Part shown: positions 20,698 to 52,562 of the stretch, in pieces
Numbering within the stretch: position 1 is the first letter of the stretch
Layout: each line of letters starts with the position of its first letter
Source of the DNA: a virus
DNA length: 64,000 bases
IMG/VR virus record: IMGVR_UViG_3300044733_004754
Strand: one strand, 5' to 3'
The notes under the pieces: model-generated
Told to the model about the DNA's origin: nothing
Databases searched by the model: none
The model's input: the letters and a program-made list of their open reading frames with translations, nothing else
Made by a program: the position numbers and the translations under genes

Positions 20698-20705
20698 CAG
20701 TAAAG

Positions 20706-25400: not shown

Positions 25401-26493
25401 TGGTTCTTACGATATAAATGATACGGCCAACCTTGCTAGTTCTTCAAACACAATTAACACGTTAGAGATACCTGAACTCTTTACGACTCAAGGTAAATAT
25501 GTTGACCTACGTAATGCCTTTGATTTTCGTCCATATGGTACAACCACTGCTAATGTTACGGCAACATTAGGTTCAGCAAGTACAAACCCATCAGGCGCAT
25601 TCGCTTTAAGCAATACAGAATTGTATATTCCAGCACCTGATTCAACAATAACGTTTGATGCTACATACTACAATAAACGTAAAGACCGTGTTGTTGTAAC
25701 AAGTAACGGGTCCTTTGTTGTTTTACAGGGTACGCCTGATCTTAATAATCCGAAAGCCCCTGAGCAACCAGATCACTCGGTTACAATAGGTGTTTTAAGT
25801 GTTCCTGCATATCCCTCACTGCCTTCAATTTTAAACTCTCAGACAACAGAGTTTGCTGGTAAAGAGCTTGCTTCACAAGATACGCTTCTAACTGAAAGAC
25901 TTAGCAGCTCATTAGTGACGGTTGATACAGTAAAAAATATCAATGATGCACAGCACCGCGTTTACACGATGAAAGATATTGGTTTGCTTGATCGTCGTCT
26001 AAACACAATTGAAAGCACCGTGAGTTTATCAGCTATTGAGCAAAAGATAAAAGAGTTAACAATTCCAAGTAGCATAACAATAACAACAAACAGATTTAAG
26101 AACGCTTTCTTTGTTGACCAGTTTAGTGATTACACCAAATCTGATTCAACCCATCGCGAATTTAAAGCAAGTGTTTCGCCCGAACGTGGAATTTTGCAAC
26201 CAAAGATCAATCAACTAAATATTGAGTCTGAGTTTGATTTGACGCATTCAAATACAGCAGCTTGTGTTACGAATGGGCTCGCTATGTTACCGTACACTTC
26301 GGAAACACTGATTAATCAAAACATAAAGAATATTGTTCTTAACGGTGATGGACAAGAAGTAAGGTTTATAGGGTCAGGATCAATTTCACCTCCATCTTTC
26401 TCTGTGAAATTGCGTGGTGAACGTATCATTCAAGAAGATGCTCCACCACCACCGCCACCTCCACCAAGTAGGCCGTGGTGGAAATTCTGGTAA
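22480..26493 (+). CDS. Large virion structural protein, DUF4815/VrlC-like N-terminal part
   Basis: LNVSPYYDDF....FYRILFKPG..VQ.RELNQLQ..LQ.Q.E.FG, L.DNA.G..NY.APGADR, LARRTYE..G.Y, YTM.DIG.L..R and RFKN.FFVD.F motifs. Confidence 0.8.
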   Translation: MPLEKSLNVSPYYDDFNEEKDFYRILFKPGVAVQTRELNQLQALLQNQVERFGSHVFKSGTILSGVNFNYLTAYPYAKILDVQTDGQPSLPAGYVNYFVKSNLNLTARVVDYKDGLEASNPDLKTIYLRYTNSSDPDPAASSIIYSAFQPNEQLTVFGEDYPLFKINVISGGVGFSNSDTIVVQSALQLANVTGTFTNGEVITQSTTLAKSVIKAINTTAIANTTILSIAPLTADLTNTSVNSAAWTFTAPYTVTGNTSGATANVVGLIGSGATALLTTDTSGIIQSVSLSDVGEDYTFLPWVTVKTSNATATVASLDLVAQNYKAKITVANTTVNAVGTGYAFGVSEGIIYQKGHFLRVEKQSIIIDKYTTTPNNIVVGFKTTEGYVDSNEDETLLDNASGAPNYTAPGADRLLLTPVLTTLTSEQAAANIDFFALAEWKSGLPFKENRTTVYTTIGDELARRTYETHGNYIIDRFNVTTKEKATTNTTHFDVVVDPGTAYIEGYRIATKYNNYINVARSSTTTDLSSQSITVNYGNYTIVKELVGVFNFKAGASVSLYDTTKQLITNSTNTTLTVTNGTITPAGNSIGTARLRSLVLDTGDPGTAEATYRMYLFDIDMDSGYSFRDVKSIYSNDGQDGIADVVRVQDATINANVAQLYDVSRNQLVFSIEAGAVESLENISYIYRTVSDNDRLVTTSGTVQIGPLNAGFTFPYSGTLSATQEKDFVVIPTEPFQAAANITGTSISVYANGLIEGTGTTFIADLAPGDFIKCANSSATAYFQIKSIANNTQAQLTTAATAMTAGNTYLYFPALYPISLSRTSRSISITGGASTATVNLGVSANVEANAIVVYNVKTANVSPVSKTINRDVLVKIHTANNDGSNTGPWSLGLPGVVRLKNVYLGNSTNVGTTTNTTVSDVTKYFVVDPVEDENAYRLSQLKLKNVPSTLAVNTNQLILAKVDVLTQASRGLVAIGSYDINDTANLASSSNTINTLEIPELFTTQGKYVDLRNAFDFRPYGTTTANVTATLGSASTNPSGAFALSNTELYIPAPDSTITFDATYYNKRKDRVVVTSNGSFVVLQGTPDLNNPKAPEQPDHSVTIGVLSVPAYPSLPSILNSQTTEFAGKELASQDTLLTERLSSSLVTVDTVKNINDAQHRVYTMKDIGLLDRRLNTIESTVSLSAIEQKIKELTIPSSITITTNRFKNAFFVDQFSDYTKSDSTHREFKASVSPERGILQPKINQLNIESEFDLTHSNTAACVTNGLAMLPYTSETLINQNIKNIVLNGDGQEVRFIGSGSISPPSFSVKLRGERIIQEDAPPPPPPPPSRPWWKFW

Positions 26494-26506
26494 GGATAAG
26501 TGTTAA

Positions 26507-26986
26507 ATGGCAATACAAACAAATTTATTTTTTACGACCCGCGACCAGGTTTTTACGGTAACAGTCTATGGGCTGAGACCTTTAACAAGACATTATTGTT
26601 TTTTTGAACGTAAACTTGTTCCGACAACTCAAATAAAACCTTTAAATGGAAATTTAGGCGAGTCAATTATTACCGATGAAAACGGATCTGTAACATTTGA
26701 CTTCTATTATCAAAGTGGAGCTTCTCTCGCTGCGACAACTGTTGCGGAAGCTCAACGGTTTGCTGCATCTATTGCAGGTACAAAGGAAATTATTGTTAGC
26801 AACATCGGTTCGTCTACGTTAGATGCAGGATACGAAAATACATCGGATTCTTTCTTTACAACACAAATCCAAATTTCTGTTTTTATTCCGTCAGATAATG
26901 AGTTTGAGACTATAAACAAACCCTATGTACCGCCGCCGCCTCCTCCTATTACAGACGCGGGATACGATCAACCTCAAGGATGGTAA
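26507..26986 (+). CDS. Virion structural protein, middle segment of split VrlC-like protein
   Basis: F...V.GL.P.TR.Y.FF and ITDENG...F.F motifs, which normally lie inside the single large protein; poly-Pro C-terminus. Confidence 0.55.
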   Translation: MAIQTNLFFTTRDQVFTVTVYGLRPLTRHYCFFERKLVPTTQIKPLNGNLGESIITDENGSVTFDFYYQSGASLAATTVAEAQRFAASIAGTKEIIVSNIGSSTLDAGYENTSDSFFTTQIQISVFIPSDNEFETINKPYVPPPPPPITDAGYDQPQGW

Positions 26987-27006
26987 TTAATAATAAAAGG
27001 TAATAA

Positions 27007-29043
27007 ATGAGTTACGATCTAGGACAAACATTTTACGTAGACAAAGCAGCAGTTCAAAATGCTGAAATGTGTTTTATTACATCTATTGGTTTGTTTTTTA
27101 AAACAAAACCTGTTCAGGGTAAAACAGTAAGTGGTATAGAATCACCAGGCGTTACCATTGCTTTGTGTAGTGTTAAAGAGGATGGGACACCCAATATAGG
27201 TAGTTCACCAATAGACATATCTCGCAAAGAATATGCGGATATATCCGTCAGCACGACAGGCTCTACAGAAACAACATTTACATTTGCTAAACCATTATGT
27301 ATTGATACGGACCGAACCTATTGTTTCCTTATAGCCTTTGACGGTAATGACACAGGGTATGAAATATTTGCAAATAAGTCTGGTAAACTAGCTGTTTCCT
27401 CGACGTCAATCACACAAGTTTCATCTGGTATTGTTGACGGAAATGCCTACAAGATAACGAACGGCAATGTTCTTACTCCTTTGACTGACACGGATATCAC
27501 ATTCAAAGTTAAAGTAGCCAAATTTACTGAACTTACAAAAACAATAAAAATTAATAATCGTCCCTATGAGTTTCTAACCGTTTCCGGTGTCACGGGAACT
27601 TTCAAGGGTGGTGAAGAAGTTTACGGTCAAGGTGCGTTTGTAGGAAACGTTCATATTACTCAAACGACAACTCTCATCGGTAACGGTACAACATTTACTT
27701 CCACACTAACAGTGGGCAATAAAATTAAGATTGAAAGTGCTAACGGTGGTTTAGTTAACATTCGCGTTGTAAATTCTATTACCAATGCAACACATTTGGT
27801 GATGGATCGCCCAGGAAGTTTTATTGACACTGCAGCAACATGTAACACAGGACCAACAGGTTTTCTTTATGAATACGATCCAATAAATGATTTGATGGTG
27901 ATTCAGGATTCAGACTCTACGTCTGACAGTAACAAAAATTGGGGCGATTCGAGCGTTGTTATAGGTGTGGATTCAAGAGCTTCAGCAAATATAACTAGTG
28001 TAGCAAATACACGTGTTAACAATATTATACCTAACTATACGGCTACAACACCTCCACAAACATCGCTGTCGCTTACGACTAATTTTGCTAACACAAGTGG
28101 AGGGGTGAGCTCCACGAGGAAAGTAACAGCAAAGCTCGGTAAGCGAGTGTTCATTAATACGTATGACGCAATGCTGGCTTCTAGGACCCGTGAAGTCAAG
28201 GCAGCTACGCCTTTCAAATCGTTTGAAGGTGAACTCCTATTGACAACATCCAATCCTTATTCTAGTCCCTTCGTACGTGAAAATGATTTGGATTTATTTG
28301 TAGAAAGATATAGCGTTAACAATAATACAGCAAACGAATCATCAAACAGAGGGTCTGCTTCAGCTCGTTACATTGGAAATCAAGTAACGTTAACAAATAA
28401 TCAATTTGCTGAAGATATGAAAATTTATCTCAAAGCATTTAAGCCTTCAAATACTGATATTCAGGTGTACGTTAAATTTTATAATACAACAGATATTGAA
28501 TCATTTGACATGAAGAGCTGGACAGAATTATCGTTAAATTCAACTTCGGTAAGTATAACATCAAATCCTTCAAACATTGATGACTTTAAAGATTTAGGGT
28601 TTGATGTACCGTTTTATCCACCAGGCACGCAAATCACAGGTAATTTTGCTGTCAACGCAAATGGTTTAATCCAAGGGTCATCAGGTACAGTAAGTAGCAA
28701 CGTAGCTGTAGGGGATGTTGTTCGGGTATATCATCCAGCTAATGCTAGCATCTACGTTGTAGATTCAGTGGTCGCAACTAATTCTTCTTCTTTAACCTTG
28801 TCGAGAGGGATCTCAAATACAACTATTACAGACCTACAATCGGGGTTCTATGTAGACAAAGCTACAGACAAAGAGGTTGCTTTCCTGGATAAACAAAATT
28901 TCAACACATTAACATATTTTAATAGTTCATTATCTAAGTTCAAGACATACAACGCCTTTGCTGTAAAAATTGTGTTATTGTCTTCAGATAATACAAATAT
29001 ACCATTCGTTGATGATCTACAGGCTGTAGCGGTGTCAGCGTGA
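27007..29043 (+). CDS. Virion structural protein, C-terminal segment of split VrlC-like protein
   Basis: Starts DLGQTF...FITSI.LFF..K; T.F.F..P, D..F....A.F, A.Y....V.L....AED.K.YL and F..FA.KIVL.S.....P...DL.A.A motifs. Confidence 0.65.
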   Translation: MSYDLGQTFYVDKAAVQNAEMCFITSIGLFFKTKPVQGKTVSGIESPGVTIALCSVKEDGTPNIGSSPIDISRKEYADISVSTTGSTETTFTFAKPLCIDTDRTYCFLIAFDGNDTGYEIFANKSGKLAVSSTSITQVSSGIVDGNAYKITNGNVLTPLTDTDITFKVKVAKFTELTKTIKINNRPYEFLTVSGVTGTFKGGEEVYGQGAFVGNVHITQTTTLIGNGTTFTSTLTVGNKIKIESANGGLVNIRVVNSITNATHLVMDRPGSFIDTAATCNTGPTGFLYEYDPINDLMVIQDSDSTSDSNKNWGDSSVVIGVDSRASANITSVANTRVNNIIPNYTATTPPQTSLSLTTNFANTSGGVSSTRKVTAKLGKRVFINTYDAMLASRTREVKAATPFKSFEGELLLTTSNPYSSPFVRENDLDLFVERYSVNNNTANESSNRGSASARYIGNQVTLTNNQFAEDMKIYLKAFKPSNTDIQVYVKFYNTTDIESFDMKSWTELSLNSTSVSITSNPSNIDDFKDLGFDVPFYPPGTQITGNFAVNANGLIQGSSGTVSSNVAVGDVVRVYHPANASIYVVDSVVATNSSSLTLSRGISNTTITDLQSGFYVDKATDKEVAFLDKQNFNTLTYFNSSLSKFKTYNAFAVKIVLLSSDNTNIPFVDDLQAVAVSA

Positions 29044-33129: not shown

Positions 33130-36100
33130 ATGGCAAGACCACTTAGAGCAAGATATGTTACAGCAAGTACAAGTGACGGTGTTCAGGAGATGTCGGATAG
33201 CGACATCAATGACCTTGTTATTCCTAGGATAACCAACTTATTTTACGCTGCATCAAATACATCTGGCTACGGTAACAAACTCGAACTAAGAACTACACCA
33301 CCAACTTGGAATTATGTTACTGGTGGGACTGTTCTTGATGTGTTTCCAACAGCTTTACCGCCCATCGGGACACATCCAGTAACTTCTTCGTCAACAACAT
33401 ACACGTTGTACCAAAATCTTGACACTGCATTGACAACAAACTTTGATCTTATAACCAAACCTGTTAAAACAGAGGCAAGTGGTGGTGTTCAAAAGATTCA
33501 ACAGTTTTCAAACAATGAAATCAGAGATGATATTCATAGTAAAGTTATTGCTGAAATATCTGTTGGGGCACAAGGAGCTTACTGGCTTGGAACTTCACCA
33601 CCAGGAACAGGTACGTGGATTGTTGTATCCTCAATAAACGATACTTTTGTTAACTCGACAAGCAATAGCACGCAAACAACCACATATAATTTGTATCAGC
33701 GCTCTACGAATAGTGGGTATGGTACAAAGAGGCCTTTAAAAGGTACAGCGAACGCTCTTACAGAGATGTCCGATGCTGAAATTGACACAATGACAGCGGC
33801 TATACGTGATTGTATTGCGGCTGGTATTGGTAGATATCAAATATCGACTACATCACCAACGCCTGGTACTTGGGTAGCTCGTGGTTCTTTCACAGATACA
33901 CAGAATGGTATAGAGGATCAATCATATTCCGGTAGTTACTTGGGTACTTTTACAGGTGCGTTCAGTGGCATTTATAATCAAGCATTCACAGGAGCTTATC
34001 AGGGACAGTTTAATCGGGCATTTACAGGTAACTTTATTGATACTTCTAAATTTACTGGTGCATTTGCAGGTGTGTATCAGCAAAATTTTACAGGTATCTA
34101 TTCACGTATTTTTACTCGTGATACAAACACCTCGTTTACGGGTGTTTATCAGAACACATATACAGGTAATTACACAGGTTTATTTGCGGGTGCATACTCA
34201 CAGGTATTCTCCGGTGGATATTTGGGAAGTTATCAAGGCTCTACTTTTACTGGCGGCTTCAACCAGACTTTTGCTGGTACGTATGTGGGAACATTTACAG
34301 GACCATATTCAGGAAATTTCCAGGGCGTAACATATTCAGGCGGATTCAATCAAAATTTTACTGGCGTATATGTAGGGGCGTTTTCAAGACCATATGCTGG
34401 GAACTTCCAAGGTATAACATATTCGGGTGGATATAATCAGACTTTTGCCGGTACGTATGTGGGAACATTCACGGGACCATATTCTGGTTCTTATCAGGGT
34501 ACAATATATCCTGGTGGGTATAATCAGACGTTTGCTGGAACATACAATCAAACGTTTACAGCTCAATACTCAGGGGATTTCCAGGGCGTAACATATTCAG
34601 GCGGTTACAATCAGACTTTCATAGGTGTATACGCAGGATCATTTTCAAGACCATATGCTGGGAATTTTCAAGGTATAACATATTCAGGTAGCTACAATCA
34701 AACCTTTGCCGGTACGTATAATCAAAGTTTTACCGGTGGATTTGTAAATAATTATGCCGGGACCTACTCACAGGCGTTCAGTGCCACGTACGCTGGTGGA
34801 TATGTTGGGGACTTTTCAAGAGCATATACAGGTTCATATCAGAACACATATTCAGGGGCATATGCAAATACGTGGTCTCGAATATTTTCAAGAGCGTGGA
34901 CGGGATCCTATACTGCTGCATATACGGGCGATTATACTGGTGCATATACGAAGGCCTTTGCGCGACTTTTCACAGGAACATATACAGGCGCTTGGATTGG
35001 TAACTACACACGTGGCTTTGTAGGCCTATATGGTTCAACATTCTCAAGAGGCTTCTCCTCCTTTTTCGTGGCCGCGTACACTTCAACGTATGCAGGAACT
35101 TATACAGGTAACTACACACGAGCTTTCACACCATCGTTTCAAGGATCGTATGCACTTCCTTCTGTAGGCTCCTACGATGGGGATTACATAGCAGGTGGAT
35201 TTACTGGGCCTTTCAACATCACGTATTATACAGGTACATATCAGGGCACATATAACAGCTTTTTCACGGGTACGTATGAAGGTGCTTTCTCACGTATATT
35301 TGCCGGTAGTTATGCTGGTACATACCAAGACCCCTATACAATAACATCATTTACGGGGCCATTTGCTGGTACAGGTTATTTTACAGGATCGTACGTTGGC
35401 AATTACCAAGGTAATTTTGGCGCTAGTTATCAAACGACATTCCAGGGATTTTATTCGGGTTTATATACGCAGGCCTTTTTGAGAGCGTGGACGAACGTAT
35501 TTGTATCAAGCTGGACATCACTGTATGCTGGTACATACTCAAGAGCATTTACAGGTGAATATCTCCAAAACTACATTGGATCGTATGAAGGAACATTCAG
35601 TAGAGAGTTCTCAGCCCCATATCAGGGATCATATGAGAATAGTTGGTCAAGAATATTTACTGGTGATTGGACGGGGGGTTTTAGTACTAATTACACTGGT
35701 GGGTATGTTAATTTTTGGACAGGGTCTTACACGAGTACATATTCCAGGGTTTTTTCGGGAGCTTATACTGGTGTAATTACATACACGGGTGGGTTTGTTG
35801 GGTTATATGCAAATACGTGGGCAGGCAGTTACACAGGACAATTTACTGGTGGCTATACTAGGGCGTTCACGGGTGACTATACGGCTACTTGGTCAGGATC
35901 CTATACCGGTGCGTACTCACAAAACTTTACCGGTTCGTATACAGGGACCTTTACTGGTGGATATACGGCTACGTGGACCGGTACCTACTCAAGAGTATTC
36001 ACAGGACAGTTTACAGGCGGATATACCGCGGTATTTACTGGTGCTTATACATCAACCTGGACAGGTTCATATGTAGGTTCATACTCACAAAACTTTTCTG

Positions 36101-36678
36101 GTAACTATGTAGGAACATTTACGGGTGCGTATACATCCACTTGGACAGGTTCTTACACCGGATCGTATTCACAAAACTTTACTGGTATATACACAGGCAC
36201 GTTCACAGGGGCATACACGGCTACGTGGACGGGTGTATATTCTGGTGCGTATTCACGAAATTTTACAGGCGCATATACGGGTACATTCAGCGGCAACTAC
36301 ACAGCTACCTTTGCTGGGACGTACACGGGCGGTTATACACGAGCATTTTCTGGTACATACGCTGGTAACTACACGGGCGGGTTTATTGGTCAGTGGACAG
36401 GAGTATACAGCCGTATATTCACTGGTTTATATACCGGCGCGTTCACAGGCGTTTTTATTGGTAACTTTACAGGTAGTTATGTTGGGACATATTCACGTAT
36501 ATTTACGGGTGCATATACTGGTTTGTTCACTGGCTCATATTCTGGAGCATATACGGGTGCTTTCAGTGGTAACTATGCTAATAATTTTACACGATTATTT
36601 ACAGGGGCATACTCGGGTCTAACCGTCACCGGTACAACGACGACGACTACATATACATTATGGGTTAGAACAGCTTGA
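33130..36678 (+). CDS. YTG-repeat filament/fibre protein A (1182 aa)
   Basis: Three ~95-aa N-terminal repeats (RPL...QEMS..[DE]I...GTW), about 900 aa of [YFW]-x-G-x repeats, C-terminus TLWVRTA. Confidence 0.7.
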   Translation: MARPLRARYVTASTSDGVQEMSDSDINDLVIPRITNLFYAASNTSGYGNKLELRTTPPTWNYVTGGTVLDVFPTALPPIGTHPVTSSSTTYTLYQNLDTALTTNFDLITKPVKTEASGGVQKIQQFSNNEIRDDIHSKVIAEISVGAQGAYWLGTSPPGTGTWIVVSSINDTFVNSTSNSTQTTTYNLYQRSTNSGYGTKRPLKGTANALTEMSDAEIDTMTAAIRDCIAAGIGRYQISTTSPTPGTWVARGSFTDTQNGIEDQSYSGSYLGTFTGAFSGIYNQAFTGAYQGQFNRAFTGNFIDTSKFTGAFAGVYQQNFTGIYSRIFTRDTNTSFTGVYQNTYTGNYTGLFAGAYSQVFSGGYLGSYQGSTFTGGFNQTFAGTYVGTFTGPYSGNFQGVTYSGGFNQNFTGVYVGAFSRPYAGNFQGITYSGGYNQTFAGTYVGTFTGPYSGSYQGTIYPGGYNQTFAGTYNQTFTAQYSGDFQGVTYSGGYNQTFIGVYAGSFSRPYAGNFQGITYSGSYNQTFAGTYNQSFTGGFVNNYAGTYSQAFSATYAGGYVGDFSRAYTGSYQNTYSGAYANTWSRIFSRAWTGSYTAAYTGDYTGAYTKAFARLFTGTYTGAWIGNYTRGFVGLYGSTFSRGFSSFFVAAYTSTYAGTYTGNYTRAFTPSFQGSYALPSVGSYDGDYIAGGFTGPFNITYYTGTYQGTYNSFFTGTYEGAFSRIFAGSYAGTYQDPYTITSFTGPFAGTGYFTGSYVGNYQGNFGASYQTTFQGFYSGLYTQAFLRAWTNVFVSSWTSLYAGTYSRAFTGEYLQNYIGSYEGTFSREFSAPYQGSYENSWSRIFTGDWTGGFSTNYTGGYVNFWTGSYTSTYSRVFSGAYTGVITYTGGFVGLYANTWAGSYTGQFTGGYTRAFTGDYTATWSGSYTGAYSQNFTGSYTGTFTGGYTATWTGTYSRVFTGQFTGGYTAVFTGAYTSTWTGSYVGSYSQNFSGNYVGTFTGAYTSTWTGSYTGSYSQNFTGIYTGTFTGAYTATWTGVYSGAYSRNFTGAYTGTFSGNYTATFAGTYTGGYTRAFSGTYAGNYTGGFIGQWTGVYSRIFTGLYTGAFTGVFIGNFTGSYVGTYSRIFTGAYTGLFTGSYSGAYTGAFSGNYANNFTRLFTGAYSGLTVTGTTTTTTYTLWVRTA
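33920..36615 (+). repeat. Coding tetrapeptide tract with 87-bp x6 (34234-34755) and 84-bp x6 (35878-36381) super-repeats
   Basis: Gln codons at 34234, 34321, 34408, 34495, 34582, 34669; Trp codons at 35890, 35974, 36058, 36142, 36226. Confidence 0.9.
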
Positions 36679-36684
36679 GAAAAA

Positions 36685-39600
36685 ATGCCACTTCGTCCGT
36701 TATACTATAATACATCGTTATCCGGATTACAGGAGATGTCCAATACGGACATCGATGGATATATTTCAAATGTAATAGGTTCTGATTTTGCTTCGACAGA
36801 AGATATTGGATCTCTCATCGTGCAGGATCCAGGTGATCCGGTTCCTGCAAATTCTACCTCCATTGGTACATGGGTTGATACACGCTACGATCAACAAATA
36901 GGTGACCATCCTGTTTCAGAAGCGAATCTTGTTTATTCAAACACAACCATTTATCAAAGATTGGGTGGTGGACCATTAACGGACCCTTCAATGGTACGAC
37001 CTATTTGCTGGAATGATACGCTTGATGGCGTACAGCAAATGGCGAATACGGATATTGACACAACCATTATTGCGAAGGCCGTTTCTTATATTGTCAATGG
37101 TGGTGTCGGTTCATATGTCCTGCAGCCGTCTGCACCAGTAACTGGTACGTGGGTTGTGAGAGGGCGATTGCAGAATACTGAACGTCCATACTTTGCCAAT
37201 GAAACATTTCTCTGGCAAAAAACGTCTGAAAGTCCAAGCGGCTCTATAAAGCCTTTGAAATGGAGTACTAATGCTTTACGTGAGATGTCAAATAACGACA
37301 TCAAAACCTTGACACATAGAGCAAGAAATTACATCGCCAATACAGGTATAGGCACCTATCAATTATCCACAACCACCCCGTCATCAGGCGGAACGTGGGT
37401 TGAGGCGGGTACGGGATTCAATGATACCCGTCAAGAAATAAGACCTCAAACTTATAATGCTCAAGTGTATACAGCAACTTTTTCTGGTGTATATACACGG
37501 GCTTTTGTTGGCAAGTATCAAGGTAGTTTTACTGGTTTGTATGGGATACCATACACACGTGAATTCACAGGTACATTCGCAGATACGTTTACCGGGGCTT
37601 TCAATCAGCAATTCACCGGAGCTTTTTCTAGCGGATATGCAACAACGTACACGGGTACGTTTAATCAGCAGTTCACTGGACAATTCACTGGCGCTTATAC
37701 TGGTGGTTATACAGGAACATTTACCGGTGCTTACACGGGCGGATATACAGGTGCATTCACTGGTGTATATTCGGCGCCTTATGTGGGTAGCTTCACTGGT
37801 GTATATGTAGGGACGTTTAATCAGCAGTTTACTGGCGCGTTCAGTGGTGTTTATCTAGGGACATATCAACAAAATTTCACTGGTGATTATGTTGGTGGCT
37901 TTACAGGTGCATTCAGCGGTGCTTATGCTCAAGCATTTACGGGTGCATATAGTTCAATCTTTACAGCAGCATATAGCGGTTCGTTTACAGGCCAGTTTTC
38001 GGGTTTATACACAGGCGCTTTCACGGGTGTATATGTAGGAAGTTACGTGGGGAAATTCACAGGCGCATATACGGCTATCTATAGTAGATTGTTTACAGGG
38101 GACTACACAGGTATTTATACTGGTGCATATAGTCAGAACTTCACCGGTGCCTTTACTGGTCAATTCAATCAAGTGTTTACAGGTACGTTCGCTGGTGGTT
38201 ATGCAGGAACGTTTAACCAAGTATTTACGGGCACATTTGCAGGTACTTACAGTAGCCTGTTCTCTGCAATATACACAGGCAACTACACTGGTATATACAG
38301 CCAAGCGTTTACAGGTGCATTCACGGGTATTTTTAATCAGGCTTTCACAGGTAACTTTGTTGGTAATTATGTTGGTAACTATCAGCAAACATTTACGGGA
38401 GCTTTTGCAGGAACATACAGCAGTTTATTCACGGGAAGCTACACAGGTAACTACACAGGATTATATAACCAAGTATTTACAGGAACGTTTGCTGGAACAT
38501 ATAGCCAAGTATTTTCGGGTAGCTATACCGGTAATTACACGGGATTATATAACCAAGTTTTTACAGGTACTTTTGCGGGAACATATAGTAGATTATTCAC
38601 AGGAAGCTATACAGGCAATTACACAGGCATATACAATCAAATATTCACAGGTACCTTCGCAGGCACTTACAGTAGATTATTCACGGGAAGCTATACAGGT
38701 AATTACACTGGCATATACAATCAAGTATTTACAGGTGCGTTTGTAGGAAATTATGCCGGGTCGTTTACTGGTTCGTTTGCTGGTGGATACACAGGTGCTT
38801 TTTCCGGTTCATACACAGGCGCTTACACAGGAATTTATGCAGGTTCATATGTAGGAAATTACCAGGGAAACTTTACTGGTTCATTTGCAGGAACATATAG
38901 TAGATTATTTATAGGTTCGTATTCGGGTGGGTACACACGTGCATTCACAGGAGCTTACACAGGAATTTATTCGGGCGGGTACGTAGGCTCCTTCACGGGT
39001 TTGTACTCCGGTGGGTATGTAGGTTCTTTCACAGGTATTTACTCAGGCGGATACACGAGAGCTTTCTCGGGATCATACACTGGATCATATACTGGAACAT
39101 ACGCCGGAACGTACACAGGTTTGTATTCAGGTGGGTATGTCGGATCGTTTACGGGCATATACTCAGGCGGATACACGAGGGCTTTCTCGGGATCATACAC
39201 TGGATCATATACTGGAACATACGCCGGAACGTATACAGGCATATATGCTGGTGGATATGTGGGGTATTTTACGGGCATATACTCAGGCGGATACACGAGA
39301 GCTTTCTCGGGATCATACACTGGATCATATACTGGAACATACGTAGGAACGTATACAGGCATATATGCTGGTGGGTATGTGGGGTATTTTACTGGAATAT
39401 ACTCTGGTGGGTATACAAGAGCTTTCTCAGGATCATATACTGGATCATATACTGGAACATACGCCGGAACGTATACGGGTTTGTATTCAGGTGGTTATGT
39501 CGGATACTTTACAGGCATATATTCAGGTGGTTATGTTGGATACTTTACAGGAATATATGGTGGCACGTACAGTAGGTTATTCACAGGTGCCTACGCGGGT

Positions 39601-42600
39601 GGATATATTGGGTACTTCACAGGAATATATGGCGGTACGTATAGTAGATTATTCACAGGCGCCTACGCGGGTGGGTATGTTGGTTACTTTACAGGAATAT
39701 ATGGTGGTACATATAGTAGATTATTTACAGGTACATACTCTGGAAGTTATCAAGGCAATTTCACGGGGCTCTATTCAGGTACATATAGTAGATTATTTAC
39801 TGGCAGCTATACAGGATTATATTCCGGAAACTTTCAGGGTAACTTTACAGGTGCTTTTGCTGGTACGTATAGTCGATTGTTTACGGGTTTATATACAGGA
39901 TCATACTCTCGTGGGTTCACGCGGGTCTTCATCGGGACTTATCAAAGAGGGTTCATAGGGTCATATGCAGGTAGCTTCAATAATACATTCACACCAACAT
40001 TTGCTGGAGCTTACGCTCGGGCCTTTATTGGAGTTTATGCAGGATCGTACCAAAACCCATTCACTGGAATATATTTCACTGGTTATTACACTGGTTTTTA
40101 CATTAATTTTTTTACAGGAACTTATCAGGGAGCGTTCACGCGTTTGTTCACAGGGGCATATACAGGCGTTTATCAAGATCCTTACGTCATTTTAACTTTT
40201 ACGGGGCCATTTGCTGGTCCAGGTTTTTTCGCGGGTACCTATGGGGGTTCTTATGTAGGTGTGTTTGGCGCCTCATATAGTAGGCTATTTACAGGCTTTT
40301 ATTCAGGATCATATACTGGTGATTTTACGGGAGCGTTTGCTCGGGTGTTCACAGCAACATGGACAGGGTCCTATGCAGGATCTTATCAAGGCAACTTTAC
40401 AGGAAGTTTTGCGGGTACGTATAGTAGATTGTTTACTGGGCAGTATTCTGGCGCTTATGCAGGATCCTATCAGGGTAACTTCACAGGTACTTTTGCTGGT
40501 ACGTATAGTAGATTATTTACGGGTACGTACTCGGGCAACTACCAAGGCAACTTCTCCGGGATATATGCAGGATCATATGCACAGACGTTTACTGGAATAT
40601 ACTCCGGCAATTACCAAGGCAACTTTTCCGGAACATATGCGGGTGCATATGCACAGACTTTCACAGGAATATATTCCGGCAATTATCAAGGCAACTTCTC
40701 AGGAACATATGCAGGAGCATATGCACAAACATTTACAGGTGCATATGCAGGGGCATATGCTCAAACATTTACAGGTACTTACGCAGGCGGATATACAGGC
40801 TATTATTCTGGCGCCTATGCTGGTACATATTCGGGTGCATTCAATCAAACATTTACAGGTGCATATGCAGGGGCATATGCTCAAACATTTACAGGTACTT
40901 ACGCAGGCGGATATACAGGCTATTATTCTGGGGCATATGCTGGAACGTATTCGGGCTCATTTAACCAGACATTTACGGGTGCATTTGCAGGGGCATATGC
41001 TCAAACATTTACAGGTACTTACGCAGGCGGATATACAGGCTATTATTCTGGCGCTTATGCTGGTACATACTCAGGAGCATTTAACCAGACATTTACAGGT
41101 GCATTCGCCGGTGTATATCAACAAACCTTTACGGGTACGTATTCAGGTGGATATATTGGATACTATTCTGGCGCTTATGCTGGTACATACTCAGGAGCAT
41201 TTAACCAGACATTTACAGGTGCATTCGCTGGTGTATATCAACAAACATTTACCGGTTCTTACTCGGGTACATATCAGCAAACGTTTACAGGTGGGTATGC
41301 AGGGACATATTCAGGGTCTTATAATCAGACATTTACAGGCGCTTTTTTAGGTAGTTATGAAAGTTCTTTCACTGGATTTTATTCAGGTGCCTATAGTAGA
41401 TTATTCACTGGTAGCTACACAGGTGCGTATACTGGAATATATGTGGGTTCCTATGTTGGTACATTTAATCAAACATTTACGGGTAGTTTTGCAGGCACAT
41501 ATTCAAGAGTATTTTCGGGATTATATTCCGGTGGCTACACGGGTGCATTTACTGGAATATATGCCGGTGCTTATGTTGGCAACTTCCAAGGCAATTTCAC
41601 AGGTAACTACTCTGGTGGCTACACAGGTGCATTTACTGGAATATATGCTGGTGCTTATGTTGGCAACTTCCAAGGCAACTTCACAGGAAATTATTCAGGT
41701 GGATATACAGGAACATTTTCGGGAATATATGCTGGTAGTTATGTAGGAGGGTATCAGGGCAACTTCACAGGAAATTATTCAGGCGGATATACCGGCACAT
41801 TTACTGGTGTATATGCAGGCGCTTATGTTGGAAGCTATCAAGGGAATTTCACTGGAAGTTTTATTGGTGGCTACACACGTGTGTTCTCGGGCACATATTC
41901 CGGTGTATATACGGGTGTTTACACAGGTCAATTTACAGGGATATACTCAACGTTATTTACAGGTGCATTCAGTGGGATATACGCAGGCGGATATGGTGGG
42001 AGTTTTCTAGGAAACTTCTCAGGGCTGTATTCGGGCGGATACACAGGAGCGTTTACAGGTATTTACACAGGTATCTACACAGGTGGGTATACTGGCACCT
42101 TTACTGGAGCATACTCAACACAGTTTACAGGTACATTTACAGGTGGATATGCAGGCACGTATGCCGGTGCCTACCAAGGCAACTTCACAGGCGTGTTCCA
42201 AGGTACGTACCAACAATCATTTACAGGTAATTACACCGGCATATACAGCCAAGCATTTAGTGGTACATATAACCAAGCATTCACAAGAAACTTTACTTTT
42301 GATTATACCGGTACGTTTTCGGGACCATATGTAGGATTTTTCACTGGAAGTTATTCACAAGTCTTCAGTAGATTTTTTACAGGATCATATACGGGTCAGT
42401 TCACAGGCGCTTATTCGGGCATATACAGTCAAGCCTTTACAGGTGCGTTCTCTGGCAATTATACAGGTATCTACAGTCAAGCATTCACAGGTGCTTACAC
42501 GGGTATATTCAATCAAACATTCACTGGCGATTTCGTAGGAAAATTTAATCAAACCTTCAGCGGTATTTTCATTGGTTCCTATAATCAACAATTCACTGGT

Positions 42601-43113
42601 GCTTTTAGTGGTGGGTATACGGCGGTGTATACTGGCGCTTACAGTCAAGCCTTTACTGGTACATTCAGCGGCATTTATACTGGTCAGTTTTCTGGTGCGT
42701 ACACGGGAGCATTTGGTTCATTGTTTACAGGAGTATACAGCCGTATATTCACTGGATCTTATTCGAGCGCATTCACAGGCCAGTTTAACCAATCGCCTGT
42801 TTACACGAGCGTGTATTCAAGACCATATGCTGGCGTGTATGGTCAGACGTTTAGTAGTACGACATATCCAGGTGCGTTTTATGCACAAGCGTTTACAGGA
42901 GAGTACACAGGATCGTATACAGGAACCTCTATCTTTGGGTTCACAAGTAGTTTTTCTAAAGCATTTACTAGTTTGTTAGGTTCTTTTTCATCGTTATTTA
43001 CAGGACTATATACTAACATAACAGGGCAATATCTAGCAGCTTGGTCGGGGTTGACAATAATGTCAACGCCGGAAACAATTCAAACACTTAAACTTTGGGT
43101 ACGAACAGCATGA
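36685..43113 (+). CDS. YTG-repeat filament/fibre protein B (2142 aa), paralogue of A
   Basis: Same three N-terminal repeats, about 1860 aa of tetrapeptide repeats, C-terminus KLWVRTA. Confidence 0.7.
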   Translation: MPLRPLYYNTSLSGLQEMSNTDIDGYISNVIGSDFASTEDIGSLIVQDPGDPVPANSTSIGTWVDTRYDQQIGDHPVSEANLVYSNTTIYQRLGGGPLTDPSMVRPICWNDTLDGVQQMANTDIDTTIIAKAVSYIVNGGVGSYVLQPSAPVTGTWVVRGRLQNTERPYFANETFLWQKTSESPSGSIKPLKWSTNALREMSNNDIKTLTHRARNYIANTGIGTYQLSTTTPSSGGTWVEAGTGFNDTRQEIRPQTYNAQVYTATFSGVYTRAFVGKYQGSFTGLYGIPYTREFTGTFADTFTGAFNQQFTGAFSSGYATTYTGTFNQQFTGQFTGAYTGGYTGTFTGAYTGGYTGAFTGVYSAPYVGSFTGVYVGTFNQQFTGAFSGVYLGTYQQNFTGDYVGGFTGAFSGAYAQAFTGAYSSIFTAAYSGSFTGQFSGLYTGAFTGVYVGSYVGKFTGAYTAIYSRLFTGDYTGIYTGAYSQNFTGAFTGQFNQVFTGTFAGGYAGTFNQVFTGTFAGTYSSLFSAIYTGNYTGIYSQAFTGAFTGIFNQAFTGNFVGNYVGNYQQTFTGAFAGTYSSLFTGSYTGNYTGLYNQVFTGTFAGTYSQVFSGSYTGNYTGLYNQVFTGTFAGTYSRLFTGSYTGNYTGIYNQIFTGTFAGTYSRLFTGSYTGNYTGIYNQVFTGAFVGNYAGSFTGSFAGGYTGAFSGSYTGAYTGIYAGSYVGNYQGNFTGSFAGTYSRLFIGSYSGGYTRAFTGAYTGIYSGGYVGSFTGLYSGGYVGSFTGIYSGGYTRAFSGSYTGSYTGTYAGTYTGLYSGGYVGSFTGIYSGGYTRAFSGSYTGSYTGTYAGTYTGIYAGGYVGYFTGIYSGGYTRAFSGSYTGSYTGTYVGTYTGIYAGGYVGYFTGIYSGGYTRAFSGSYTGSYTGTYAGTYTGLYSGGYVGYFTGIYSGGYVGYFTGIYGGTYSRLFTGAYAGGYIGYFTGIYGGTYSRLFTGAYAGGYVGYFTGIYGGTYSRLFTGTYSGSYQGNFTGLYSGTYSRLFTGSYTGLYSGNFQGNFTGAFAGTYSRLFTGLYTGSYSRGFTRVFIGTYQRGFIGSYAGSFNNTFTPTFAGAYARAFIGVYAGSYQNPFTGIYFTGYYTGFYINFFTGTYQGAFTRLFTGAYTGVYQDPYVILTFTGPFAGPGFFAGTYGGSYVGVFGASYSRLFTGFYSGSYTGDFTGAFARVFTATWTGSYAGSYQGNFTGSFAGTYSRLFTGQYSGAYAGSYQGNFTGTFAGTYSRLFTGTYSGNYQGNFSGIYAGSYAQTFTGIYSGNYQGNFSGTYAGAYAQTFTGIYSGNYQGNFSGTYAGAYAQTFTGAYAGAYAQTFTGTYAGGYTGYYSGAYAGTYSGAFNQTFTGAYAGAYAQTFTGTYAGGYTGYYSGAYAGTYSGSFNQTFTGAFAGAYAQTFTGTYAGGYTGYYSGAYAGTYSGAFNQTFTGAFAGVYQQTFTGTYSGGYIGYYSGAYAGTYSGAFNQTFTGAFAGVYQQTFTGSYSGTYQQTFTGGYAGTYSGSYNQTFTGAFLGSYESSFTGFYSGAYSRLFTGSYTGAYTGIYVGSYVGTFNQTFTGSFAGTYSRVFSGLYSGGYTGAFTGIYAGAYVGNFQGNFTGNYSGGYTGAFTGIYAGAYVGNFQGNFTGNYSGGYTGTFSGIYAGSYVGGYQGNFTGNYSGGYTGTFTGVYAGAYVGSYQGNFTGSFIGGYTRVFSGTYSGVYTGVYTGQFTGIYSTLFTGAFSGIYAGGYGGSFLGNFSGLYSGGYTGAFTGIYTGIYTGGYTGTFTGAYSTQFTGTFTGGYAGTYAGAYQGNFTGVFQGTYQQSFTGNYTGIYSQAFSGTYNQAFTRNFTFDYTGTFSGPYVGFFTGSYSQVFSRFFTGSYTGQFTGAYSGIYSQAFTGAFSGNYTGIYSQAFTGAYTGIFNQTFTGDFVGKFNQTFSGIFIGSYNQQFTGAFSGGYTAVYTGAYSQAFTGTFSGIYTGQFSGAYTGAFGSLFTGVYSRIFTGSYSSAFTGQFNQSPVYTSVYSRPYAGVYGQTFSSTTYPGAFYAQAFTGEYTGSYTGTSIFGFTSSFSKAFTSLLGSFSSLFTGLYTNITGQYLAAWSGLTIMSTPETIQTLKLWVRTA
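37450..43050 (+). repeat. Coding tetrapeptide tract with 84/120/72-bp then 72/120/84-bp super-repeat blocks
   Basis: 120-bp units start at 39061, 39181, 39301, 39421 and at 40741, 40861, 40981, 41101. 72-bp units start at 39541, 39613, 39685 and at 40531, 40603, 40675. 84-bp units start at 38461, 38545, 38629 and at 41521, 41605, 41689, 41773. Confidence 0.9.
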
Positions 43114-43553
43114 AACGAACTATTGTAAATCCGCATTGGGTAAACAATGCAAGAACAGTTATCTCTGCTGAATTTCATTATGATGACGGTAGGGTAGCGC
43201 AGGCAACGATTTCCGAGTCGGATGTTACTAATCCAGACCTTGTTGAAATTAAATCAAAATTTACGGACGAGCAACTTGAAGCTAACACGCGTAAAAAAAT
43301 TCAAGAGATCAATGCCGAGCGTGAGCGTAAGCATCAGGAAGAATTGGCTAAGGCTCAACGAAAACAACAAGAAGAATTGTTTGCAGCTAAGCTAAGAATT
43401 TTTGAGATCGACGCCATTAAAGAATCAGATAATCGAGTGCTCAAAGCAAAGATAAGAAAGTCAAAGAGTGATGTTGAGGCTATGGCGTGGGCCTCGGCTT
43501 TGTTGCTTGATATAGCCCAAAAGGAAATAGCAACAAATTCAACGGCGGAGTAA
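43110..43553 (+). CDS. Hypothetical protein, possible fibre assembly chaperone
   Basis: ATGA overlap with filament gene B; NP.W.N..RT.I N-terminus resembling tail-fibre assembly proteins; coiled-coil C-terminal half. Confidence 0.45.
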   Translation: MKRTIVNPHWVNNARTVISAEFHYDDGRVAQATISESDVTNPDLVEIKSKFTDEQLEANTRKKIQEINAERERKHQEELAKAQRKQQEELFAAKLRIFEIDAIKESDNRVLKAKIRKSKSDVEAMAWASALLLDIAQKEIATNSTAE

Positions 43554-43555
43554 AA

Positions 43556-44290
43556 ATGAATATTCGTAATGGTTTTTTAATTGTTGCATCACAACTCAAA
43601 GAGTATCTAGATTCGGCAAATTATCTGGCGAGTAGTATAAAAGACTACTATCCCGAAGCACACATCACTCTTTTTGTAACTCCAAAGCTAGAGCAATATG
43701 CTGACCGCAGTGCCTTTGATCTAGTTATATCTGAGGATGTTCCGAACCATGTGCGTACAAAGTTGTACGCTCTCTCCAGAACACCATACACTGAGCTTAC
43801 TGTTTATGTTGATGCAGATATGGAGTGCATGCACTCTGATGTCTCGAATATTTGGGATGAAATGCCTGAGGATTGTGACCTCCTGATTACAAAAATACGT
43901 CCCTATAACGGTAAAGAGGATCGTTGGCCGGGAGGTGCGACGATACCTCAAGGCCGTATGATATATCATGGTGGTTTTTTTATGTACAGATCAAACCCAC
44001 AAACACTTGAGTTTATGCGTAGGTGGTGGGAGGATTATAAATTACAAAGAAGTGAACCATGGCCTTATCCTGAAGAAGAGTGTAGGAAGTCCTTTGCTCA
44101 ATGGGATCAATTTACTTTTTGGAAACTTTTAGCTGTTGACAAGCTAGATGTTAAGGTAGGTGTTTTTGATGATGATGCAAGATGGAATTTTGTAAATGGT
44201 TATTATCCAAAAGAAGCCAAAAAAGAGATCGTTTTTTGGCACCACACTATTCCTTCTAAGCACGAAAATATAGGGATCAAAGCTAAATGA
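43556..44290 (+). CDS. Putative GT-A fold glycosyltransferase
   Basis: A..SIK...P...ITLF, K..AL..TPY...VYVDAD (DxD), Y.GGFFMY and WDQF motifs. Confidence 0.65.
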   Translation: MNIRNGFLIVASQLKEYLDSANYLASSIKDYYPEAHITLFVTPKLEQYADRSAFDLVISEDVPNHVRTKLYALSRTPYTELTVYVDADMECMHSDVSNIWDEMPEDCDLLITKIRPYNGKEDRWPGGATIPQGRMIYHGGFFMYRSNPQTLEFMRRWWEDYKLQRSEPWPYPEEECRKSFAQWDQFTFWKLLAVDKLDVKVGVFDDDARWNFVNGYYPKEAKKEIVFWHHTIPSKHENIGIKAK

Positions 44291-44919
44291 AAGAAATTCA
44301 AATAAACAATAAAGAACTTAAACAAATTTTAAATGATTGGTTAGAGGTTCTTTTGAGAGCAGATCGTTCGAAATATCCCTATCAAGCAGGCGTGGGTAAA
44401 ACTGGATTAGTGACTCCAGAGTATGCATGTAGTATGGAATACTTGCAACACATGCAAAGTAAAAAAGTAGACGGATTCCCAGAAACAACACATGGTGTTG
44501 ATCTAATGAGGTTTCGACCACCACACCAATCCCTTGCCGACGCTTTGGTAAAGCTAGACTACGATCTACTCAATTGGTCTGGATCGCGCAACAATGCGGT
44601 TAAGATGCTCTATCCTAAAGGCGGGTATATGGGCTGGCATCATAATGCAAACGCGCCCGGTTATAACATTCTTTTATCATGGTCTGAAAAAGGTACAGGT
44701 TTCTTTCGTTACCAAGATCCAATAACAAAAGAGATTGTCACGATGCAGGACACGCCTGGGTGGACGTGTAAAGTTGGATATTATGGACCATGGCATGAGC
44801 CGGATCGAATCTACTGGCACTGCGCAAGCGCACATGAAGAAGAGCGGGTAACGCTAGGGTATATCATTCCTCATGAAGGGATGTGGAATAATATGTGCGA
44901 TGATATTCAGTCAGCGTAA
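44287..44919 (+). CDS. Putative cupin / 2OG-Fe(II) oxygenase-like protein
   Basis: YP.GGYMGWHHN...YWHC....R.TLGY jelly-roll pattern; Asn at the usual HxD acidic position. Confidence 0.5.
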   Translation: MKEIQINNKELKQILNDWLEVLLRADRSKYPYQAGVGKTGLVTPEYACSMEYLQHMQSKKVDGFPETTHGVDLMRFRPPHQSLADALVKLDYDLLNWSGSRNNAVKMLYPKGGYMGWHHNANAPGYNILLSWSEKGTGFFRYQDPITKEIVTMQDTPGWTCKVGYYGPWHEPDRIYWHCASAHEEERVTLGYIIPHEGMWNNMCDDIQSA

Positions 44920-52180: not shown

Positions 52181-52562
52181 TGACCCCATAGCCAATGCTC
52201 TTGATATAACACCACTTGCACCATCATCGCCAATTATTCAGCGATTTGAAGATAACCAAGTTGTTGATGATTTTGAGTTTGCAAGGACAAATCTAATTAA
52301 TGCCATTGAGCAAGGGCAGACTGCGTTGGCTGATATTGTAACGGTCGCAGGCATGTCCCAACATCCTAGGGCATATGAGGTTGTTGCAACTTTGTTGAAA
52401 ACTGTTGCAGATGCAAACAAGGACTTACTTGAATTGCAAAAACGAAAGAAAGACTTGACTGGTATTGGACCTGCCCCAACAACAGTGAATAATAACTTAT
52501 TTGTTGGTAGTACGGCAGAACTCCAGCAACTAATAAAGAAACAAAATGAGCAAGCTGGGTGA
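52173..52562 (+). CDS. gp16: Terminase small subunit gp16
   Basis: DFEFAR.NL...I..G, HPRAYEV and NNNLFVGST.ELQ motifs. Confidence 0.9.
   Translation: MNNDPIANALDITPLAPSSPIIQRFEDNQVVDDFEFARTNLINAIEQGQTALADIVTVAGMSQHPRAYEVVATLLKTVADANKDLLELQKRKKDLTGIGPAPTTVNNNLFVGSTAELQQLIKKQNEQAG

What the first reader, a model, noticed from the sequence alone, without database searches (positions are those of the whole stretch)
33130..36678. Paralogous shorter filament shows the same symmetry independently
Seen: the N-arm has six 87-bp units (29 aa, seven aromatic-led motifs, FQG[VI]TYSGG.NQ.F...; 34234-34755). The C-arm has six 84-bp units (seven tetrapeptides, YT[AS]TW[TS]G...; 35878-36381). Their joint midpoint (~35310) lies between two irregular loops, YALPSVG...GPFNITYY and QDPYTITSFTGPFAGTGYF. 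The second loop closely matches the centre of protein B. The unit sequences differ from those in B, so the symmetry arose by separate expansions. Inference: a second filament of about half the length with a conserved tip motif that may contact a receptor or partner.
Basis: partly seen in the sequence, partly recalled or inferred. Interest (0 to 1): 0.8.

Follow-up and report, generated by a model that had tools for sequence, protein, structure and literature searches.

The report
Fold-back tyrosine-glycine ribbon phage fibre
A 1182-residue protein in the tail-gene block of an uncultured T4-like phage most likely runs out about 450 residues, turns, and runs back beside itself as one very long two-stranded ribbon anchored in a small three-lobed base, a fibre design that no described protein family or solved structure covers.

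Summary
ORF 33130-36678 (A, 1182 aa) has a three-module base, then about 220 [F/Y/W]-x-G-x tetrapeptides. These include six 29-aa units (aa 369-542) and six 28-aa units (aa 917-1084) on either side of an irregular centre that matches the centre of the 2142-aa neighbour B.

An out-and-back stalk is supported by sequence and comparative evidence:
- The tract interrupts the last hairpin of base module 3.
- The two arms are 409 and 411 aa, and arm lengths match across relatives.
- Read backwards, the C arm matches the N arm in one register, the flush-ended one. Phe faces Gln or Arg, Tyr faces Gly, and 5 of 6 N-arm bulges face Trp.
- In the closest ortholog, the base and both base-proximal arm segments are conserved while the distal part is replaced.

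AlphaFold2 gave no usable model of A. A 409-aa relative folds with a confident base and a low-confidence hairpin that turns at the tract midpoint.

The tip motif is shared by A and B under purifying selection. A orthologs lack it, and B orthologs keep only part of it. The symmetry centre is about aa 718-721, not 727.

The function as an adsorption fibre is inferred, and the oligomeric state is unknown. This scan has already flagged the same design in other phage genomes, so this is a further case, not a first.

The parts
33130..36678 (+). Gene A: 1182-aa fold-back fibre protein. AGGA sits 8 nt upstream of the ATG, and the start lies 1 nt after the stop of the upstream gene.
33130..33924 (+). 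Base, aa 1-265: three tandem modules of about 90 aa (RPL..G.QEM..DI..G.Y.L...P..GTW...D). Module 3 lacks its last strand here.
   Evidence: Module alignment. The homologous base of a 409-aa relative folds with pLDDT above 90. The best structural matches are beta-prism domains, Z 5.6-7.2.
33925..35151 (+). N arm (outward strand), aa 266-674: 101 tetrapeptides
34234..34755 (+). Six 29-aa units in the N arm: 7 tetrapeptides plus one bulge residue at FQG[VI]T
35152..35403 (+). Distal tip, aa 675-758: irregular loop 1 (674-700), a short regular block and the QDPY loop
35281..35301 (+). Inferred apex turn, GAFSRIF (aa 718-724), homologous to B GAFTRLF at the centre of B's mirror register
   Evidence: Inferred
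35326..35382 (+). QDPYTITSFTGPFAGTGYF motif (aa 733-751) on the return strand just past the apex
35254..35427 (+). Tip core shared with B (A 709-766 = B 1140-1197): 66% amino-acid identity, 63% DNA identity, 38% identity at third codon positions
35404..36612 (+). C arm (return strand), aa 759-1161: 102 tetrapeptides
35878..36381 (+). Six 28-aa units in the C arm (YT[AS]TW[TS]G...). The Trp tetrapeptide of each unit faces an N-arm bulge.
36613..36675 (+). C-terminal segment SGLTVTGTTTTTTYTLWVRTA, which supplies the missing last strand of base module 3
   Evidence: Modules 1 and 2 end in TTYTLYQ and TTYNLYQ. L1177, W1178, R1180 and A1182 are invariant in 12 relatives. The homologous strand has pLDDT 91-96.
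36685..43113 (+). Gene B: 2142-aa paralog with the same plan, repeat blocks in palindromic order and the same pairing rule

Best explanation
A is a virion fibre protein built from a single chain. Its first 265 residues form three tandem modules that pack into a compact three-lobed, beta-prism-like base. The last beta-hairpin of the third module is drawn out enormously. The chain runs outward for about 450 residues, turns near aa 718-724, and returns antiparallel to itself. Its final 21 residues complete the base.

The stalk is a two-stranded ribbon of [F/Y/W]-x-G-x tetrapeptides. An aromatic residue on one strand lies across from position 3 of a tetrapeptide on the other strand. Tyr lies across from Gly, Phe across from Gln or Arg, and the Trp of each C-arm unit across from a one-residue bulge in the N arm. 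This complementarity fixes the register, so length can change only when both arms gain or lose matching units.

The irregular, Pro-containing tip is shared with the twice-as-long paralog B. It is the likely contact site for a host-surface ligand, and the base docks the fibre on the tail or baseplate.

Shown here: the topology constraint, arm-length matching, the mirror register, and the pattern of modular divergence. Inferred: beta-ribbon geometry, a length of roughly 150 nm if straight, the monomeric state, the attachment site and a role in adsorption.
For: (1) Topology. Modules 1 and 2 end in TTY.LYQ strands. Module 3 lacks that strand, and the protein's C-terminus TTYTLWVRTA supplies it. 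In the AlphaFold2 model of a 409-aa relative, the base and the C-terminal strand have pLDDT above 90. The tract strands are ordered 259-279/379-407, 287-293/367-373 and 315-327/330-343, so the turn falls at the tract midpoint.
(2) Arm lengths. A has 409 and 411 aa, B has 906 and 897 aa. Relatives show 37/37, 89/89, 113/113, 125/125, 128/127, 133/133 and 207/208. Spearman rho is 0.76. Nine of 30 pairs agree within 2 aa, which no one of 10,000 permutations reached (maximum 6).
(3) Mirror register in A. Phe/Tyr identity correlates in reversed order with r = 0.59 at shift -1. The next-best shift gives 0.31 and the best direct-order shift 0.45. Non-Gly position 3 facing Phe peaks at shift 0, the flush-ended register. 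It ranks first of 81 shifts (phi 0.29, z 3.7, Fisher 5e-5). Gln faces Phe in 15 of 17 cases, Arg faces Phe in 15 of 24, and Gly faces Tyr in 83 of 126. Five of 6 N-arm bulges face Trp. In B, Gln faces Phe 42 of 42 times and Arg faces Phe 28 of 30 times.
(4) The flush register is also the best one in L003_A, P0003, P0009, P0010 and P0033, whose tracts span 92-221 tetrapeptides. All three B orthologs share one offset, -16.
(5) Unit-to-unit DNA similarity among the N-arm units correlates with that among the facing C-arm segments (Mantel r 0.60, exact p 0.004).
(6) Against the closest ortholog (L001), neighbouring genes are 86-100% identical and A's base 94-100%. Both base-proximal arm segments are conserved (N arm to about aa 348, C arm from about aa 1087), and the distal part is at 20-40%.
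(7) Context. A lies in a T4-like structural block downstream of baseplate-wedge genes.
Against: There is no confident structural model of the stalk. Full-length A gave pLDDT about 23 in the tract, with no N-arm/C-arm pairing visible. The relative's hairpin has pLDDT 35-47.

The pairing rule is noisier in A than in B. Only 44 of 76 non-Gly positions face Phe, and 36 of 126 Gly positions also face Phe. Within A alone, the mirror correlation (0.59) is not far above the best direct-order value (0.45), because both arms carry 7-tetrapeptide periodic arrays.

The +2 steps at aa 302 and 879 have no mirror partner. A bare two-stranded ribbon with one aromatic face and a length of about 150 nm has no precedent and may need partners.

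No data show that the protein is in virions or binds anything. Related sequences share ancestry, so the family statistics are not fully independent.
Confidence: 0.7

Rival explanations
1. Each chain still goes out and back, but the functional fibre is an oligomer. It could be a trimer whose six strands form a narrow barrel, as in the T4 gp37 needle, or two ribbons packed aromatic face to aromatic face. The aromatic residues would then be buried and not exposed.
For: All the mirror-register and arm-length evidence fits this equally well. One face of the ribbon would carry every Tyr/Phe/Trp (position 1), which favours burial. Low pLDDT of the monomeric stalk is what one would expect if partners are missing. 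From general knowledge, most phage fibres are trimers.
Against: The base consists of three tandem modules within one chain and folds confidently as a monomer (pTM 0.72). This looks like a built-in pseudo-trimer, not a trimerisation domain. No direct evidence for any oligomer was obtained.
Confidence: 0.2
2. The arms do not pair. The tract is a one-way fibre or solenoid, or a disordered low-complexity region. The equal halves would come from tandem duplication of half the tract.
For: Some short relatives, such as the 409-aa protein of L052, have halves that look like direct repeats. In A, the direct-order Phe/Tyr correlation reaches 0.45. AlphaFold2 of A shows no N/C arm pairing (very low confidence).
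Against: The two ends of the tract must meet in the base. In B the repeat blocks lie in palindromic order, not direct order, and direct-order correlation is only 0.21 against 0.54 for mirror order. The best mirror register is exactly flush in six proteins of different lengths. The ortholog conserves both proximal arm segments and replaces the distal part as one unit. No DNA-level mechanism produces mirror-order peptides, so mirror order points to selection for pairing.
Confidence: 0.05
3. The fold-back ribbon is real but does not recognise the host. It could be a spacer, a sensor whisker or a decoration that contacts other virion parts, for instance by binding along the longer B filament.
For: The gene sits where T4 carries wac, between the baseplate/short-fibre genes and the neck genes gp13/gp14 (T4 gene order from my own knowledge). 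A is about half as long as B and has the same tip, which could also suit an A-B contact.
Against: A and B are the only strongly diverged genes in an otherwise 86-100% identical block. The divergence is concentrated in the distal part, the usual signature of host-recognition modules. Relatives carry globular inserts at or near the tip (P0007) or in one arm (the L001 B-like protein), as receptor-binding fibres do.
Confidence: 0.1

Closest known systems
Needle domain of the T4 long-tail-fibre tip, gp37 (PDB 2XGF; recalled from my own knowledge, not tested here)
   Same: The chain leaves a collar domain, runs to a distal tip, turns and returns. The collar is made from sequence before and after the needle, and the tip carries the receptor-binding site.
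   Different: gp37 is an intertwined homotrimer with a needle of about 50 residues per pass, held by His-x-His iron sites. A has about 450 residues per pass, a four-residue aromatic/Gly repeat, no His motifs, a single-chain three-module base and no detectable sequence similarity. BFVD Foldseek listed a T4 protein 37 fragment only at E 0.014 and TM 0.08.
Beta-prism domains with a protruding hairpin: perforin-2/MPEG1 P2 domain (6sb1), Plu-MACPF C-terminal domain (2qp2), Mp2Ba1 (8b6v), MABP domain of MVB12B (3tow)
   Same: These are the four best structural matches to the confidently modelled base of the relative (Z 7.2, 7.0, 6.2, 5.6; 110-123 residues aligned). They share a three-lobed pseudo-symmetric beta arrangement. 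From my own knowledge, the P2 domain also extends one hairpin to touch a membrane.
   Different: The Z scores lie in the range where only a common strand arrangement may be shared. Identity is 6-10%. The base here adds one helix per module, and the extended hairpin is hundreds of residues long.
Antiparallel coiled-coil arms of SMC and Rad50 proteins (from my own knowledge)
   Same: A globular base is formed by the N and C termini, with two long arms that run out and back. The arm lengths stay matched in evolution, and a special apex (hinge or zinc hook) closes the arms.
   Different: Those arms are alpha-helical coiled coils with heptad repeats. Here the repeat is four residues long, rich in Gly, Thr and aromatics, and is predicted as beta-strand.
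Uncharacterised relatives: 193 clusters at 50% identity in metagenomes, 132 IMG/VR loci, and CDS0201 (3347 aa, 'hypothetical protein') of Phage C48C1, Kyanoviridae, OQ984149.1
   Same: They have the same base, the same insertion point, the same tetrapeptide tract and the same C-terminal ..LW[VIL]R.A strand.
   Different: Tract length ranges from none to over 3000 aa. Many carry globular inserts at or near the tip or in one arm. None has a name, a Pfam or PHROG family, or a structure.

Membership tests
Unnamed phage family: three-module base plus tetrapeptide fold-back tract (defined here from relatives) | N-terminal M.RPL... base made of three tandem modules of about 90 aa | tested here: met
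   Module alignment. phmmer with A 1-265 finds 193 representative clusters, 114 of them at E <= 1e-10.
Unnamed phage family: three-module base plus tetrapeptide fold-back tract (defined here from relatives) | C-terminal ..SGLTV..T.TLW[VIL]R.A strand that completes module 3 | tested here: met
   L1177, W1178, R1180 and A1182 are invariant in 12 sequences. The same ending occurs in 38 locus-encoded proteins.
Unnamed phage family: three-module base plus tetrapeptide fold-back tract (defined here from relatives) | [F/Y/W]-x-G-x tract with equal arms and a mirror register | tested here: met
T4 gp37-type long-tail-fibre tip | Sequence similarity to gp37 or related distal fibre proteins | tested here: not met
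   No Pfam, PHROG or PDB sequence match.
T4 gp37-type long-tail-fibre tip | Homotrimer with interleaved strands and His-x-His metal sites | tested here: inconclusive
   The tract of A contains no His (sequence). The oligomeric state is unknown.
MABP / MACPF-associated beta-prism domains | Three-fold pseudo-symmetric beta-prism fold | tested here: inconclusive
   The four top VIA-align matches are all of this fold, but Z is only 5.6-7.2. Foldseek against the PDB found nothing at E <= 0.001.
Collagen-like or polyglycine-II fibre repeats | Gly at every third residue | tested here: not met
   The period is 4. Gly occupies position 3 of the tetrapeptide in 63% of units and aromatics occupy position 1 in 100%.
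Fixed-turn beta-solenoids (pentapeptide-repeat, antifreeze-type helices) | Constant number of residues per turn | tested here: not met
   Higher-order unit lengths in A and B are 24, 28, 29 and 40 aa, with only the 4-residue period in common.

The most novel reading that the evidence does not exclude
A and its relatives form a new class of fibrous protein. The fibre would be a single polypeptide folded into one beta-hairpin hundreds of residues long, about 150 nm for A and about 300 nm for B. Its register would be written in a residue-pairing code (Tyr-Gly, Phe-Gln/Arg, Trp-bulge). Its length would evolve through compensating repeat expansions on the two strands, much as an RNA stem evolves. 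It would sit on a single-chain pseudo-trimeric base that takes the place of the usual trimeric fibre root.
Probability: 0.5. Interest if true: 0.9.

Novelty: new variant of a known kind. Interest (0 to 1): 0.78.

Why it matters
Phage fibres decide which cells a phage can attach to, and every well-studied fibre is a trimer built from a handful of folds. If the reading is right, this protein is a fibre built on a different principle. One chain would pair with itself over hundreds of residues according to a simple, readable rule. Length would be set by matched repeat numbers, and the tip could be exchanged as a cassette.

That would matter in three ways:
- It would give structural biology a new fibrous fold, and protein design a natural, length-programmable beta ribbon.
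- It would explain a large group of unnamed proteins in T4-like phages, mostly known from uncultivated viral contigs. These comprise 193 clusters at 50% identity and 132 viral loci.
- It predicts filaments about 1 nm wide that routine negative-stain microscopy could easily miss.

The pairing rule makes the model directly testable by cross-linking or by matched versus unmatched deletions.

Tried and rejected
- AlphaFold2 of full-length A with a 12-sequence alignment gave mean pLDDT 36 and about 23 in the tract. It is not usable for or against pairing.
- A three-copy complex job on the 313-aa relative P0042 returned no verdict (score 0.00, controls not run). It is not counted either way.
- Pfam and PHROGs on A and B gave nothing. 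PDB sequence search gave nothing. Foldseek against the PDB and BFVD gave nothing at E <= 0.001. The ESM Atlas returned only unnamed viral clusters.
- Against 50,697 GenBank phage records, megablast of the gene and tblastn of the base found no match. Only a short relative used as query found Phage C48C1.
- The window's own assembly is not held, and the nearest record, G001, has no copy.
- Five literature searches found no description of such a repeat or fibre.
- Residue-level mutual information over all registers was dominated by the 2- and 4-residue periodicity and was dropped. Counting the partners of Arg alone gave several equivalent registers. The tetrapeptide-level shift scan replaced both.
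- A strict regular expression for the whole tip motif matched only A and B. The looser [QLE][ND]P[FY] motif occurs in 11 of 89 relatives, always within 62 residues of the tract midpoint.
- Recent gene conversion between the A and B tips was rejected. Third-position identity is 38%, and identical codons for identical residues are 17 of 38, against a background of 37%.
- Compensatory substitutions between A and its L001 ortholog could not be tested, because too few informative changes occur in the conserved proximal stalk.
Full report
**Context.** The window is the structural block of a T4-like myovirus. It carries baseplate-wedge homologues at 13469-22469, large terminase at 52546, sheath at 54299, portal at 57040 and major head protein at 61808. 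The head protein is 62-70% identical to those of Stenotrophomonas phage DLP6, Sinorhizobium phiM12 and cyanophages. Gene A (33130-36678, 1182 aa) and gene B (36685-43113, 2142 aa) lie between the baseplate genes and the neck genes, in one operon-like run.

**The observation.** It is correct.
- Aromatic residues in A are spaced exactly four apart in 201 successive steps.
- Position 1 of the tetrapeptide is always Tyr, Phe or Trp. Position 2 is mostly Thr or Ser, and position 3 is Gly in 63% of units, otherwise mostly Arg or Gln.
- Tandem Repeats Finder reports the 87-bp array at 34260-34719 and part of the 84-bp array at 36033-36187.
- At protein level the six 29-aa units (aa 369-542) and six 28-aa units (aa 917-1084) are plain, with mean identities of 63% and 61%.
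- The 29th residue of each N-arm unit is a +1 register step.
- The irregular stretches lie at aa 674-700 and 733-751.
- The segment A 709-766 matches B 1140-1197 at 66% identity, against 28 +/- 11% for in-register arm segments.
- A's units resemble each other (71-83%) far more than anything in B (52-57%), so the arrays expanded separately.

**The ends of the tract must meet.** The first 265 residues are three tandem modules. Modules 1 and 2 end in a strand TTY.LYQ. Module 3 lacks that strand, and the very C-terminus of the protein, TTYTLWVRTA, supplies it. A 409-aa relative (L052) was folded with a 50-sequence alignment. Its base, including this C-terminal strand, has pLDDT above 90 and pTM 0.72. 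The tract appears as strand pairs 259-279/379-407, 287-293/367-373 and 315-327/330-343, so the turn falls at the tract midpoint, but with pLDDT of only 35-47. The four best structural matches to that model are all beta-prism domains (2qp2, 8b6v, 3tow, 6sb1; Z 7.2-5.6). That level may reflect only a shared strand arrangement, and Foldseek found nothing.

**Arm lengths are matched across the family.** The base alone finds 193 clusters at 50% identity and 132 IMG/VR loci. Phage C48C1 (Kyanoviridae) encodes a 3347-aa member annotated as hypothetical.
- In complete proteins, the first and last regular blocks are often identical in length: 37/37, 89/89, 113/113, 125/125, 128/127, 133/133 and 207/208.
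- A has 409/411 and B has 906/897.
- Spearman rho is 0.76. Nine of 30 pairs agree within 2 aa, which no one of 10,000 permutations reached.

**The arms match in mirror order, in one register.** A lead from earlier notes of this scan prompted a test that I ran independently. I parsed both arms into tetrapeptides, 101 in the N arm and 102 in the C arm.
- Phe-versus-Tyr identity correlates between the N arm and the reversed C arm with r = 0.59 at shift -1. The next-best shift gives 0.31 and the best direct-order value is 0.45.
- The rule 'non-Gly at position 3 faces Phe' peaks at shift 0, the flush-ended register. It ranks first of 81 shifts (phi 0.29, z 3.7, Fisher 5e-5).
- In that register Gln faces Phe 15 of 17 times, Arg faces Phe 15 of 24 times, and Gly faces Tyr 83 of 126 times.
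- Five of the six N-arm bulges face the single Trp tetrapeptide of a C-arm unit.
- B obeys the same rule more strictly: Gln to Phe 42 of 42, Arg to Phe 28 of 30, phi 0.48. Its blocks lie in palindromic order, 84/120/72 | 72/120/84 bp.
- Across the family, the best mirror register is exactly flush in A, L003_A, P0003, P0009, P0010 and P0033, whose tracts span 92-221 tetrapeptides. All three B orthologs share an offset of -16.

No DNA-level process produces mirror-order peptides, so the pattern points to selection for physical pairing.

**Co-evolution of the arrays.** DNA similarity among the six N-arm units correlates with that among the facing C-arm segments (Mantel r 0.60, exact p 0.004). Units 2 and 5 are the closest pair on both arms. 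There are only six units, so this is suggestive and not decisive.

**Modular divergence.** In the closest relative (L001), neighbouring genes are 86-100% identical, but A is about 50% and B about 56% identical. Within A the base is 94-100% identical. Both base-proximal arm segments are conserved, the N arm to about aa 348 and the C arm from about aa 1087. Everything distal is at 20-40%. The replaced portion is therefore the outer part of a hairpin, bounded at roughly mirror positions.

**The tip.** The mirror register puts the centre near aa 718-721 (GAFSRIF), which is homologous to the centre of B's register. The two irregular loops then face each other just below the apex.
- The A/B tip core is 66% identical in protein but 63% in DNA, with 38% at third codon positions. 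The similarity is therefore old and maintained by selection, not by recent conversion.
- A orthologs in L001 and L003 carry different tips. B orthologs keep only YQGAFTR[IL]F...QDPY.
- A looser [QLE][ND]P[FY] motif occurs in 11 of 89 relatives, always within 62 residues of the tract midpoint.

**What is not shown.**
- AlphaFold2 gave no usable model of A's stalk.
- The oligomeric state is open. A three-copy job gave no verdict.
- Presence in the virion, attachment site and ligand are all inferred from gene position and from the divergence pattern.
- The lengths of about 150 nm (A) and 300 nm (B) assume a straight beta ribbon at 3.3-3.4 Å per residue.

**Novelty.** I found no Pfam, PHROG or PDB match and no paper. 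Other agents in this scan have reported the same design in other phage genomes. This finding is therefore a further, independently analysed case. Its particular features are regular bulge-to-Trp pairing, and a tip shared by two fibres of one phage.

Noticed in passing
window 43095-46248: Five small genes directly after B. They show only weak Pfam similarity, below the curated cut-offs: sugar-binding SBD_N, nucleotide-diphospho-sugar transferase and methyltransferase. The first three are conserved at 86-91% identity in L001. They may modify or help assemble the Thr/Ser/Tyr-rich fibres.
   Followed up: partly
L001:13148-19417 (B-like protein, aa 650-826): The B ortholog of the closest relative carries a globular insert of about 176 aa in its N arm, about 390 residues from the base. 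The window's B lacks it. It looks like a lateral domain hung on one strand of the stalk.
   Followed up: no
L081:1-10044 (Phage C48C1, OQ984149.1, CDS0201): A deposited Kyanoviridae genome encodes a 3347-aa member of the family, with the same base, tetrapeptide tracts, several globular inserts and the ending TYTLYVRVA. It is annotated only as a hypothetical protein.
   Followed up: partly
L052, L053, L055, L059, L076 and about 20 other IMG/VR loci: Short family members of 409-460 aa are common in uncultivated viral contigs. In L053 the gene lies about 760 bp downstream of a 2134-aa ORF, with a 171-aa ORF between them. In L052, +2 insertions (TGAKAY, TGTSAY) on one arm face +2 insertions on the other.
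   Followed up: partly
window 22480-29043: A 1337-aa ORF and a 678-aa ORF both match PHROG 358 and 877 (unknown function, with traces of tail-fibre similarity). They are probably further fibre or baseplate-periphery proteins.
   Followed up: no
window 49168-49857: A 229-aa ORF is similar to the N-terminal part of long-tail-fibre distal subunits (PHROG 19966, E 3e-11). It may be a truncated or adaptor-like fibre piece just upstream of the neck genes.
   Followed up: no
window 36685-43113 (B, aa about 2034-2120): B's return arm runs 16-18 tetrapeptides beyond the flush register and becomes irregular near the base. The same -16 offset appears in both B orthologs, so B seems to have an extra base-proximal element that A lacks.
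   Followed up: partly
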